Positions 50,922-52,189 of a DNA stretch of 64,000 nucleotides are shown here, in pieces; positions within the stretch are counted from its first letter, which is position 1; each line of letters opens with the position of its first letter. Source of the DNA: Octopus sinensis (taxonomy: Eukaryota); contig NC_042997.1 in NCBI RefSeq assembly GCF_006345805.1, positions 142,228,001 through 142,292,000 on the forward strand, given 5' to 3'. A program made the position numbers.

Positions 50922-52189
50922 ATTCATGCAGGCACACATGCATGCACAAACCCATGCCAGTACATGTCTAAGAGTCCAGGTGATTAAGCATTGGCTATGG
51001 ACAATATACTGGTTGAGTTATTGAAAGGACAATAAAATAAAAGATGGACAAGTAATTGTTAATGGCATCAAAGCTTTTATGAAAAGGTTATATGGAAGTA
51101 AGTATAAATATAGCAATAATAATTCTCTAAACGAGATATAGACAGTAACTGCTCCATAACATAAGGGACGTTAGCCATCTGAATGTGGCTAGGGACAGGG
51201 CAGGGCGGTGGGGGTGTTACTGATGCATTTAGCCCCAGGCGATCATCAACGTCACCAGGAGGGCCGACGCCATCACGGCGTCCTCTAGCCTGCAAAGGGA
51301 GATCATTCCCCGAAGAAGCGGATGCCACATACGGACCTAGGTTTCAAGGTGTTTGCCTATTATCAACGTATGGCCTCCCTTTGCAGGCTAGAGGACGCCG
51401 TGATGGCGTCGGCCCTCCTGGTGACGTTGATGATCGCCTGGGGCTAAATGCATCAGTAACACCCCCACCGCCCTGCCCTATCCCTAGCCACATTCAGATG
51501 GCTAACGTCCCTTATGTTATGGAGCAGTTACTGTCTATATCTCGTTTAGAGAATTATTATTGCTGTCGAACAGATTTTCTACATCAGTAAATGTATTTAC
51601 TGTGAAAATCTTTATATATAGCCTGCACAGAGAGTCATTCGTCGAGTAGCGGTGCCTGCCATACGTTGATAATAGGCAAACACCTTGAAACCTAGGTCCG
51701 TATGTGGCATCCGCTTCTTCGGGGAATGATCTCCCTTTGCAGGCTAGAGGACGCCGTGATGGCGTCGGCCCTCCTGGTGACGTTGATGATCGCCTGGGGC
51801 TAAATGCATCAGTAACACCCCCACCGCCCTGCCCTGTCCCTAGCCACATTCAGATGGCTAACGTCCCTTATGTAGTATAAATATATTTAAGCAGAAAAAC
51901 AAGAAAATTAGGTATGTGAGAGTTTGTAGTAGTTCCCCATAGATAGGTAGATATCCCGAAAGTTCACACTCTAATGTCATAGATAAAAGAGAGAAAGAGC
52001 TGAATAGTCCTTTGTATATCAGCAGAGTTCATATTTGAACTTTACAAATAAGAGACAGGAGAATATGGGTAATCTTTTACAGCTGTTTCTGGGTTTTGTT
52101 GCTCAGGAAGTGCAACATTGTGCATTGTCTGTACATATGCATGAAGGAAATTGGGTTTTATCACTACTTCATTTTGATTTAACTCACTC

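What the first reader, a model, noticed from the sequence alone, without database searches (positions are those of the whole stretch)
51101..51885. Young retrozyme-like element: 356-nt ribozyme-bearing monomer, candidate circular-RNA retroelement
Seen: a GC-richer non-coding island made of one 356-nt unit. It runs as 1.4 tandem copies on + (51375-51873) plus an inverted partial copy (51374 back to 51112), with only one mismatch I could find between copies. It carries a complete hammerhead fold and has a perfect 12-bp TSD. Established: animal non-LTR retrozymes are short tandem monomers of a few hundred nt with type I hammerheads, processed into monomeric circular RNAs and mobilised in trans. 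Inference: this is a recently active retrozyme family in this (probably cephalopod) genome. I cannot confirm whether it has been described.
Basis: partly seen in the sequence, partly recalled or inferred. Interest (0 to 1): 0.9.

Follow-up and report, generated by a model that had tools for sequence, protein, structure and literature searches.

The report
Small hammerhead-bearing Penelope-type retroelement insertion
A single 761-base insertion of a 356-base non-coding mobile element that carries a variant self-cutting hammerhead RNA motif and shows the tandem-plus-inverted scar typical of Penelope-type retrotransposition; it is a new example of a known class, not a new class.

Summary
The anatomy is real. 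A 761-nt, GC-richer insert (51113-51873) sits between perfect 12-bp target-site duplications. It is built from one 356-nt unit: 1.4 head-to-tail copies on the + strand and a 262-nt inverted piece. Only one site varies between copies.

Rfam finds no hammerhead, even at E<=10. A hand-written type-I descriptor hits only the two copies inside this insert (51660-51704 +, 51372-51328 -). It hit 1 time in 150 simulated 128-kb sequences. The motif has a 6-bp helix I and a UUGAUAA core, so a U3-A8 pair replaces C3-G8. Helix II has a U.U pair at its base, and helix III is 2 bp with a palindromic loop. Each deviation has a published precedent in Penelope-like elements (PLEs) or retrozymes.

The layout is a short truncated copy, a full copy, an inverted 5'-truncated copy and a 46-47-nt tail at one end. 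That is the published PLE insertion signature. Best reading: a non-autonomous, PLE-mobilised non-LTR retrozyme-type element.

Each strand holds only one hammerhead, so this locus cannot release a monomer or circle by itself. Family copy number, host taxon, ribozyme activity and circular RNA could not be tested. Verdict: new member of a known kind, moderate interest.

The parts
51101..51112 (.). Left target-site duplication, AGTATAAATATA
   Evidence: Identical 12-mer at 51874-51885, abutting the repeat ends. Chance about 2e-7 to 2e-5.
51113..51158 (-). One-sided 'tail': 46 nt (47 if 51112 is counted) equal to unit positions 144-189, extending the inverted copy beyond the point where the right-hand copy ends
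   Evidence: blastn and script. PLE insertions often carry a 30-40-bp extension at one end only (PMC8557442).
51159..51374 (-). Inverted 5'-truncated copy: unit 284-356 followed by 1-143, including one head-to-tail junction at 51302/51301
   Evidence: 216/216 complementary to 51658-51873.
51328..51372 (-). Hammerhead-like motif of the inverted copy; predicted cleavage after 51334 on the minus strand
   Evidence: Descriptor hit. GAAACCTAGGTC at 51334-51345 on the minus strand.
51375..51517 (+). Upstream 5'-truncated copy (unit 1-143), the pseudo-LTR in the PLE frame; it contains the only variable site, A at 51480
   Evidence: Repeats 51731-51873 with 142/143 identity. Joined to the inverted copy at 51374/51375 with no filler and no microhomology.
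51518..51873 (+). One full 356-nt copy in the PLE frame (unit 144-356 followed by 1-143), ending at the right TSD; head-to-tail junction at 51730/51731
51658..51708 (+). Type-I hammerhead-like motif. Helix I 51660-51665 pairs with 51699-51704. Core UUGAUAA 51666-51672. Helix II and loop 51673-51686. GAA 51687-51689. Helix III and loop ACCUAGGU 51690-51697. C17 at 51698, cleavage 51698/51699.
   Evidence: Descriptor, chance estimate, constrained fold, predicted double-hammerhead dimer. No Rfam match.
51874..51885 (.). Right target-site duplication, AGTATAAATATA

Best explanation
This is one insertion of a 356-nt, non-coding, non-autonomous retroelement of the non-LTR retrozyme / non-autonomous Penelope-like kind.

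Shown by the sequence:
- A 761-nt insert lies between 12-bp TSDs.
- It holds a longer-than-unit + strand copy (499 nt) and an inverted 5'-truncated copy.
- In unit orientation, both 3' ends face the TSDs and both 5' ends meet at a blunt junction (51374/51375).
- Each piece that spans the relevant region carries a sense-strand type-I hammerhead-like motif.

Inferred mechanism:
- An endonuclease made nicks staggered by 12 bp.
- Each nick primed reverse transcription of the sense RNA, starting at unit position 143 on the right and 189/190 on the left.
- The right-hand cDNA ran for more than one unit, so the template was either a circular monomer copied round and round or a multimeric transcript.
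- The two 5'-truncated cDNAs were then joined head to head.
- The enzymes were supplied in trans, most likely the RT and GIY-YIG endonuclease of a Penelope-like element, because tandem plus inverted copy plus one-sided tail is that family's signature.

Role of the hammerhead (inferred): in master arrays elsewhere it would cut multimeric transcripts into monomers. It probably acts as a double hammerhead, because helix III is only 2 bp and ACCUAGGU is an 8-nt palindrome. Monomers could then be circularised by a host ligase; that last step is recalled from the retrozyme literature.

This copy has one hammerhead per strand and cannot release a monomer. If it is transcribed across, it would fold into a 216-bp perfect hairpin.
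For: Anatomy and TSD. Two head-to-tail junctions fix the period at 356 nt.

[quoted passage not shown] Here the pieces are 143 nt, then 356 nt, with an inverted 216 nt and a 46-47-nt tail.

Hammerhead motif: the descriptor hits only the 2 copies in the insert across 128 kb. Simulations gave 1 hit in 150 x 128 kb with window-like composition and 0 in 150 with unit-like composition. Apart from positions 3 and 8, every other fixed core position the descriptor checks (U4 G5 A6, A9, G12 A13 A14, A15.1, U16.1, with C at 17) is canonical. Positions 3 and 8 form a pair in the canonical core, and here they changed together from C-G to U-A.

Literature precedents:
- U3-A8 in PLE hammerheads of Schistosoma, about 1,300 hits (PMC4209133, Results).
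- Canonical metazoan type I has helix I of 6 bp, helix II of 4 bp, and helix III of 1-2 bp with a 2-4-nt palindromic loop (same section).
- A U.U mismatch at the base of helix II with a 2-bp helix III and tetraloop occurs in the axolotl 350-bp retrozyme (PMC7229834, passages).
- Pairs of motifs 100-700 bp apart on opposite strands are reported. Here they are about 353 bp apart.

Retrozyme-like properties: mussel retrozyme repeats are 350-390 bp and retrozyme TSDs exceed 4 bp. The unit folds unusually stably, z = -4.3. The RNAcofold minimum-energy dimer is the double hammerhead, -25.8 against 2 x -10.7 kcal/mol.

Non-coding: the longest ATG ORF is 104 aa on the antisense strand with no Pfam family. 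The 135-aa ORF that crosses the inversion junction also has none.
Against: - No Rfam hammerhead model matches, even at E<=10 in a 76-nt search.
- My descriptor was written after I had seen the motif, so the chance figure is optimistic.
- The hammerhead fold is 5.5 kcal/mol above the minimum-energy fold of the 95-nt arm.
- PLE minimal hammerheads with similar weak helices cleaved poorly in vitro.
- Neither inner 5' end (unit 1 and 284) coincides with the predicted cleavage site (unit 324/325). Nothing here shows a ribozyme-processed template.
- Only one locus is available. There is no second copy in the window, so family membership, covariation and copy number are untested.
- No PLE reverse transcriptase or GIY-YIG was seen in the window. 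26 of the 28 ORFs of at least 110 aa were scanned; the 2 skipped cross the N gap. The RVT_1 hits belong to LINE-type fragments.
- The tail is 46-47 nt, against the published 30-40 bp.
- Unit GC of 47.8% is under the '<50%' given in the retrozyme text but over the '<45%' in its figure legend.
Confidence: 0.7

Rival explanations
1. It is a non-autonomous Penelope-type (SINE-like) element whose hammerhead-like motif is a vestige of the parent's pseudo-LTR. In this reading there is no self-cleavage and no circular RNA stage. The tandem arises by template jumping of the PLE reverse transcriptase on linear RNA.
For: Rfam finds no hammerhead. Helices II and III are weak. PLE minimal hammerheads show low activity in vitro. 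Naiad PLEs proliferate without canonical hammerheads, and non-autonomous PLEs that make pseudo-LTRs and multicopy head-to-tail insertions are known (PMC8557442). The 5' ends here do not map to the cleavage site.
Against: The only two core deviations are the compensating pair at positions 3 and 8, which points to constraint rather than decay. The architecture (helix I 6 bp, helix II 4 positions, 6-nt loop 2) matches canonical retrozyme-type hammerheads more than minimal PLE ones. The unit size matches known retrozymes.
Confidence: 0.15
2. The element was mobilised by a LINE rather than a PLE. The inversion would come from twin priming (recalled from LINE-1 biology), and the tandem from a multimeric satellite-like transcript.
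For: LINE reverse-transcriptase fragments are present in the window. A 12-bp TSD and an inverted 5'-truncated segment are also compatible with LINE-type target-primed reverse transcription (recalled).
Against: Neither outer end carries a poly(A) or a simple-repeat 3' tail. Longer-than-unit tandem plus inverted copy plus one-sided tail is described as not observed during target-primed reverse transcription of non-LTR elements (PMC8557442). The hammerhead association is with PLEs and retrozymes.
Confidence: 0.06
3. It is an assembly artefact or a local DNA rearrangement, such as a foldback or inverted duplication of a short tandem repeat, and not a transposition event.
For: Complex PLE-like structures are known to trouble assemblies (PMC8557442). 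Perfect 216-bp inverted arms are also what chimeric reads can produce.
Against: The junction at 51374/51375 is not a mirror point: it joins unit position 284 (reverse complement) to unit position 1, and the two outer ends differ (143 against 189/190). A perfect 12-bp duplication of AT-rich host sequence abuts both ends. The insert is 51% GC in a 34% GC background.
Confidence: 0.04
4. It is a DNA transposon or foldback element with long terminal inverted repeats.
For: 216-bp perfect inverted repeats and a TSD.
Against: The inverted repeat is not terminal on the left: 46 more nt of element sequence lie outside it, and they match the interior at 51518-51563. The interior repeats the arm head to tail. 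No transposase is present, and the hammerhead-like motif and the 12-bp TSD have no place in that model.
Confidence: 0.03

Closest known systems
Metazoan non-LTR retrozymes (Cervera and de la Pena 2020, PMC7229834), e.g. mussel 350-390-bp and axolotl 330/350-bp repeats
   Same: A non-coding monomer of a few hundred nt (356). Head-to-tail junctions. A sense-strand type-I hammerhead-like motif with a 6-bp helix I, short helix II, and short helix III with a palindromic loop. A U.U pair at the base of helix II, as in axolotl HHR_Amex2. GC under 50%. TSD longer than 4 bp. A highly self-paired predicted RNA.
   Different: Only 1.4 copies, with one hammerhead per strand, instead of dimers to multimers. 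The core pair is U3-A8, which in what I read was reported only for PLE minimal hammerheads. No Rfam match. An inverted truncated copy is attached. Expression, circles and copy number are unknown.
Penelope-like elements and their non-autonomous derivatives (Craig et al. 2021, PMC8557442; Cervera and de la Pena 2014, PMC4209133; bioRxiv 10.64898/2026.07.22.740005)
   Same: The insertion architecture: partial tandem forming a pseudo-LTR, an inverted 5'-truncated copy at the 5' end, and a tail at one end only. Hammerhead motifs on opposite strands a few hundred bp apart. The U3-A8 core variant. Palindromic 15.2-16.2 and loop 3.
   Different: No RT or GIY-YIG ORF, and a unit of 356 nt rather than 3-4 kb. 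Helix I and II dimensions are those of canonical type-I motifs, not of minimal PLE motifs (helix II 7-8 bp, helix I 4-5 bp, G10.1-C11.1). The tail is 46-47 nt. Similarity to any autonomous PLE could not be tested.
Newt/salamander satellite 2 and Schistosoma Sm-alpha hammerhead repeats
   Same: A short repeat unit with a type-I hammerhead whose weak helix III implies action as a double hammerhead in multimeric transcripts.
   Different: Those are long arrays or SINE-like copies with the canonical C3-G8 core. Here there is a single insertion with a TSD and an inverted copy.

Membership tests
Hammerhead ribozyme, type I | Conserved catalytic core: C3 U4 G5 A6 N7 G8 A9, G12 A13 A14, A15.1-U16.1, H17 | tested here: inconclusive
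   UUGAUAA ... GAA A ... U C. All fixed positions are canonical except 3 and 8, which are U and A. This covariation is documented in PLE hammerheads (PMC4209133).
Hammerhead ribozyme, type I | Three helices around the core, with helix I open-ended | tested here: met
   Helix I has 6 bp and continues, after a 3/1 internal loop, into a long stem. Helix II has 3 bp plus U.U with a 6-nt loop. Helix III has 2 bp with a CUAG loop. The chance rate of the descriptor is about 1 hit per 19 Mb.
Hammerhead ribozyme, type I | Match to the curated covariance models (Rfam hammerhead families) | tested here: not met
   0 matches at gathering score. No hammerhead at E<=10 in 1 kb or in 76 nt.
Hammerhead ribozyme, type I | Site-specific self-cleavage | not testable with these tools
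   Needs in vitro transcription of monomer and dimer constructs.
Non-LTR retrozyme | Short tandem repeats, monomer about 170-400 nt, from dimers to multimers | tested here: inconclusive
   The period of 356 nt is fixed by two head-to-tail junctions, but there are only 1.4 copies on + and 0.74 on -. TRF reports nothing.
Non-LTR retrozyme | Type-I hammerhead in every monomer | tested here: inconclusive
   The motif is present in 2 of the 2 stretches that span unit positions 284-334. With one per strand, no monomer is bracketed by two ribozymes.
Non-LTR retrozyme | No coding capacity; low GC; TSD longer than 4 bp when present | tested here: met
   No Pfam family for the 104-aa and 135-aa ORFs. 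Unit GC 47.8%. 12-bp TSD.
Non-LTR retrozyme | Multicopy family expressed as monomeric circular RNA | not testable with these tools
   No eukaryotic genome or transcriptome collection was open. 0 further copies in the 64-kb window.
Penelope-like element insertion (non-autonomous) | Partial tandem (pseudo-LTR), adjacent inverted 5'-truncated copy, and a one-sided tail | tested here: met
   143 nt, then 356 nt on +; inverted 216 nt; 46-47-nt tail at the left end only, compared with PMC8557442.
Penelope-like element insertion (non-autonomous) | Sequence similarity of the unit to the 3' end or pseudo-LTR of an autonomous PLE in the same genome | not testable with these tools
   No PLE was recognised in the window. 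No genome was available.

The most novel reading that the evidence does not exclude
This locus would be a first sighting of a retrozyme family in a lineage where none is in print. The library searches for retrozyme or hammerhead together with cephalopod, octopus or squid found none, although the host taxon itself is unverified. Its ribozyme would combine the canonical retrozyme-type type-I architecture with the U3-A8 catalytic pair, a form that escapes Rfam and TRF-based retrozyme pipelines. Its insertion scar (TSD, longer-than-unit cDNA, inverted truncated copy, one-sided tail) would be direct structural evidence that retrozymes are integrated by Penelope-type machinery from a circular or multimeric RNA template.
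Probability: 0.3. Interest if true: 0.55.

Novelty: new member of a known kind. Interest (0 to 1): 0.4.

Why it matters
Retrozymes are thought to be mobilised by Penelope-like elements. In what I read, that link rests on co-occurrence, shared hammerheads and a phylogeny of pseudo-LTRs (preprint 10.64898/2026.07.22.740005, abstract and passages). A clean, young insertion of a 356-nt hammerhead-bearing unit with the full PLE-type scar is a concrete junction-level example of that link.

It also shows that a U3-A8 variant in an otherwise canonical type-I frame is invisible to Rfam, and that an array of fewer than two copies is invisible to TRF-first pipelines. Surveys may therefore undercount such elements. 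For annotators, the locus is a 216-bp perfect inverted repeat that could yield hairpin RNA, and it is a likely source of assembly trouble.

Tried and rejected
- Rfam at three scales found no hammerhead or other ribozyme. I therefore used a descriptor with simulated controls instead.
- I looked for further copies in the window by sensitive blastn. Only low-complexity noise appeared. The 1-mismatch match to GAAACCTAGGTC at 6158 has no core upstream and is chance.
- TRF does not see the array.
- A 33-nt hammerhead string scanned against the prokaryotic genome-contig collection gave 0 hits, as expected. This says nothing about eukaryotes.
- I tried to place the host taxon with a LINE reverse-transcriptase ORF. 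There were 16 hits, the best at 55-57% identity and unnamed; the named ones were jockey-type LINE proteins of a lizard and a bird, plus a comb jelly protein named only 'hypothetical'. No taxon can be assigned.
- Searching the literature for the motif strings returned only unrelated primers. One search was badly framed: min_terms 2 let in general cephalopod papers, so it is uninformative.
- Pfam was run on 26 of the 28 ORFs of at least 110 aa (the 2 that cross the N gap were left out) and on the 104-aa antisense ORF. There was no GIY-YIG and nothing for the element's ORFs.
- My hand-written double-hammerhead dot-bracket was wrongly nested and gave a meaningless energy. I rely on the program's own minimum-energy dimer.
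- Considered and rejected: terminal repeat of a coding PLE (the period is 356 nt), mirror-image foldback artefact (the junction is asymmetric), and a TIR transposon (the repeats are not terminal).
Family copy number, tandem arrays, an autonomous partner and empty sites stayed unchecked. Supplements were closed. The supplementary hammerhead alignments and species tables of PMC4209133, PMC7229834 and the 2026 preprint may already list this variant or this host group.
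Full report
WHAT IS THERE

The window between 51101 and 51885 holds a 761-nt insert (51113-51873). It is 51% GC in a background of 34%. It is flanked by a perfect 12-bp direct repeat, AGTATAAATATA, at 51101-51112 and 51874-51885, and this repeat abuts the ends of the repeated material exactly. With the local base composition, 12 matches at fixed positions have a probability of about 2e-7, or about 2e-5 if 121 offset combinations are allowed.

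The insert is made of a single 356-nt unit:
- 51375-51730 is one full unit.
- 51731-51873 repeats unit positions 1-143.
- The minus strand of 51113-51374 reads unit 284-356 followed by 1-189.

Two independent head-to-tail junctions exist, 51730/51731 on + and 51302/51301 on -, so the period of the template was 356 nt. Only one site varies: unit position 106 is A at 51480 and G at 51836 and, in reverse complement, at 51196. The arms 51159-51374 and 51658-51873 are 216/216 complementary. No other copy lies in the 64-kb window. TRF does not report the 1.4-copy array.

THE HAMMERHEAD

Rfam gave nothing. There were 0 matches at gathering score over the whole window. There was no hammerhead among the 2 weak unrelated matches at E<=10 in 1 kb, and 0 matches in a 76-nt search centred on the motif.

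Read by hand, and with a descriptor I wrote, the + strand at 51658-51708 has these parts:
- Helix I: CAUACG (51660-51665) pairs with CGUAUG (51699-51704).
- Core: UUGAUAA (51666-51672).
- Helix II: a U.U pair plus AGG/CCU, closed by the loop CAAACA (51673-51686).
- GAA at 51687-51689.
- Helix III: A-U and C-G, closed by CUAG (51690-97).
- C17 at 51698.

The same motif lies on the minus strand at 51372-51328.

These two sites were the only descriptor hits in 128 kb of both strands. Simulated sequences gave 1 hit in 150 x 128 kb with window-like composition and 0 in 150 with unit-like composition. The descriptor was written after I had seen the motif, so this figure is optimistic. Its relaxations are nevertheless all documented:
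- The U3-A8 covariation occurs in about 1,300 Schistosoma PLE motifs (PMC4209133, Results read in full).
- The same section gives the canonical metazoan type-I form as helix I of 6 bp, helix II of 4 bp, and helix III of 1-2 bp with a 2-4-nt palindromic loop.
- The axolotl 350-bp retrozyme has a U.U mismatch at the base of helix II and a 2-bp helix III with a tetraloop (PMC7229834, passages).

Apart from positions 3 and 8, every fixed core position is canonical. Those two positions pair with each other in the canonical core, and they changed together. That looks like constraint, not decay.

ACCUAGGU is an 8-nt palindrome, and RNAcofold's minimum-energy dimer of the 51-nt motif is the classical double hammerhead (-25.8 against 2 x -10.7 kcal/mol). 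As a monomer, the hammerhead fold lies 5.5 kcal/mol above the minimum-energy fold of the 95-nt arm. Helix I continues, past a 3/1 internal loop, into a long stem. The whole unit folds unusually stably (z = -4.3). Activity is untested, and PLE minimal hammerheads with similar weak helices cleaved poorly in vitro.

HOW IT GOT THERE

In unit orientation, both outer ends are 3' ends and both inner ends are 5' truncations. The inner ends meet at a blunt junction (51374/51375) with no filler and no microhomology.

If the element is taken to end at unit position 143, the layout becomes:
- a 143-nt 5'-truncated copy (51375-51517);
- one full copy (51518-51873);
- an inverted 5'-truncated copy of the last 216 nt (51374 down to 51159);
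- a 46-47-nt extension at the left end only (51158 down to 51113).

This is the published description of PLE insertions. A full copy is preceded by a truncated copy that forms a pseudo-LTR. An inverted 5'-truncated copy sits at the 5' end. A 30-40-bp tail is often present at one end only. These features are said not to be seen with non-LTR elements (PMC8557442, passages). Pairs of PLE hammerheads 100-700 bp apart on opposite strands are also reported; here the two are about 353 bp apart.

My inference is as follows. Staggered nicks 12 bp apart each primed reverse transcription of the sense RNA. One cDNA ran for 499 nt, which is longer than the unit, so the template was a circle or a multimer. 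The two cDNAs were then joined head to head. The sequence cannot tell a circle from a multimer. Neither 5' end coincides with the ribozyme site, so nothing here shows a ribozyme-processed template.

WHAT IT IS NOT

- It is not the terminal repeat of a coding PLE, because the period is 356 nt.
- It is not a mirror-image foldback artefact. The junction joins unit 284 (reverse complement) to unit 1, and the outer ends differ.
- It is not a TIR transposon, because the inverted repeat is not terminal on the left.
- It does not code. The longest ATG ORF of the unit is 104 aa on the antisense strand with no Pfam family, and the 135-aa ORF across the inversion junction also has none.

All three pieces arose in one event. 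Their near-identity therefore dates the insertion as young, consistent with the intact TSD and 1 difference in about 405 aligned positions. It does not date the family.

Each strand has only one hammerhead, so this locus cannot excise a monomer or form the 356-nt circle. A transcript across it would instead fold into a 216-bp perfect hairpin that buries both motifs.

The host taxon is not established. A LINE ORF found only LINE relatives, the best at 55-57% identity and unnamed, and they gave no taxon for the window. If the host is a cephalopod, recently active Penelope families are reported in Octopus vulgaris: 30 families and 329 insertions under that paper's definition (PMC13282606, passages). 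Penelope expansions are also reported in coleoids (PMC8967140, passages).

No PLE was recognised in this window. Pfam was run on 26 of the 28 ORFs of at least 110 aa. RVT_1 matched twice and zf-RVT once, all in LINE-type fragments, and there was one mariner-type transposase fragment and no GIY-YIG.

COMPARISON AND NOVELTY

The element works like, and most probably is, a non-LTR retrozyme. Retrozymes are defined as short tandem monomers with type-I hammerheads, non-coding, low in GC, with TSDs over 4 bp (PMC7229834). A 2026 preprint argues on phylogenetic grounds that they are non-autonomous PLE derivatives (10.64898/2026.07.22.740005: abstract, introduction and passages).

Membership is incomplete. 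The locus is below a dimer. The ribozyme is a variant that Rfam does not recognise. Copy number, expression and circles could not be tested.

The library searches found no paper that describes retrozymes or hammerheads in cephalopods. 'Hammerhead ribozyme' with octopus gave 5 papers, none on this topic. 'Retrozyme' with cephalopod gave 2 records, both the same PLE paper. 'Hammerhead ribozyme' with squid gave 6 unrelated papers. Supplementary tables were closed and may list such cases.

I rate this a new member of a known kind. Two points are of modest specialist interest. First, the junction-level PLE signature appears on a retrozyme-sized unit. Second, a U3-A8 core sits in a canonical type-I frame that standard screens miss.

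VERDICT

- Observation: confirmed.
- Interpretation: partly supported.
- Best explanation: a PLE-mobilised, hammerhead-bearing non-autonomous retroelement insertion that cannot itself release a monomer or circle. Confidence 0.7.
- Interest: 0.4.

Noticed in passing
window 51159-51374 and 51658-51873: The locus is a 216-bp perfect inverted repeat with a 283-nt spacer. Folded as one RNA it gives a near-continuous hairpin (-567 kcal/mol, z = -44). If transcribed it could be a source of small RNAs or a substrate for RNA editing, and it would bury both hammerhead motifs.
   Followed up: partly
window 51535-51849 (-): A 104-aa ATG ORF lies on the antisense strand of the unit. It is rich in Gly, Pro, Ser and Arg, with no Pfam family above cut-off. 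It is probably a chance ORF in GC-rich sequence.
   Followed up: yes
window 12684-13672 (-): Fragments of a LINE reverse transcriptase (RVT_1). The best relatives, at 55-57% identity, are unnamed proteins, one of them about 980 aa with an AP-endonuclease domain. Named relatives are 'jockey'-type.
   Followed up: partly
window 45605-47481 (-): A second broken retrotransposon ORF set: RVT_1 at 47083-47481 and zf-RVT at 45910-46560. It is LINE-like, with no GIY-YIG.
   Followed up: no
window 54082-54528 (+): A fragment of a mariner-type transposase (Pfam Transposase_1, E = 6e-9).
   Followed up: no
window 15318-15746 (-), 28267-28695 (+), also 21787-22390 and 34629-35069: Stop-free stretches share near-identical peptide strings, such as WHVKSTHYT.GVVGV.KG. 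This suggests a dispersed short repeat (possibly a SINE) present several times in the window.
   Followed up: no
window 18090-18189: A run of 100 N, either an assembly gap or masking. It was left untouched.
   Followed up: no
window 50500-50600, 50888-50916, 52190-52230: (TA)n/(TATG)n and (GT)n microsatellites lie on either side of the insertion. The target itself is AT-rich. A bias of some PLEs for (TA)n targets is reported (PMC8557442).
   Followed up: no
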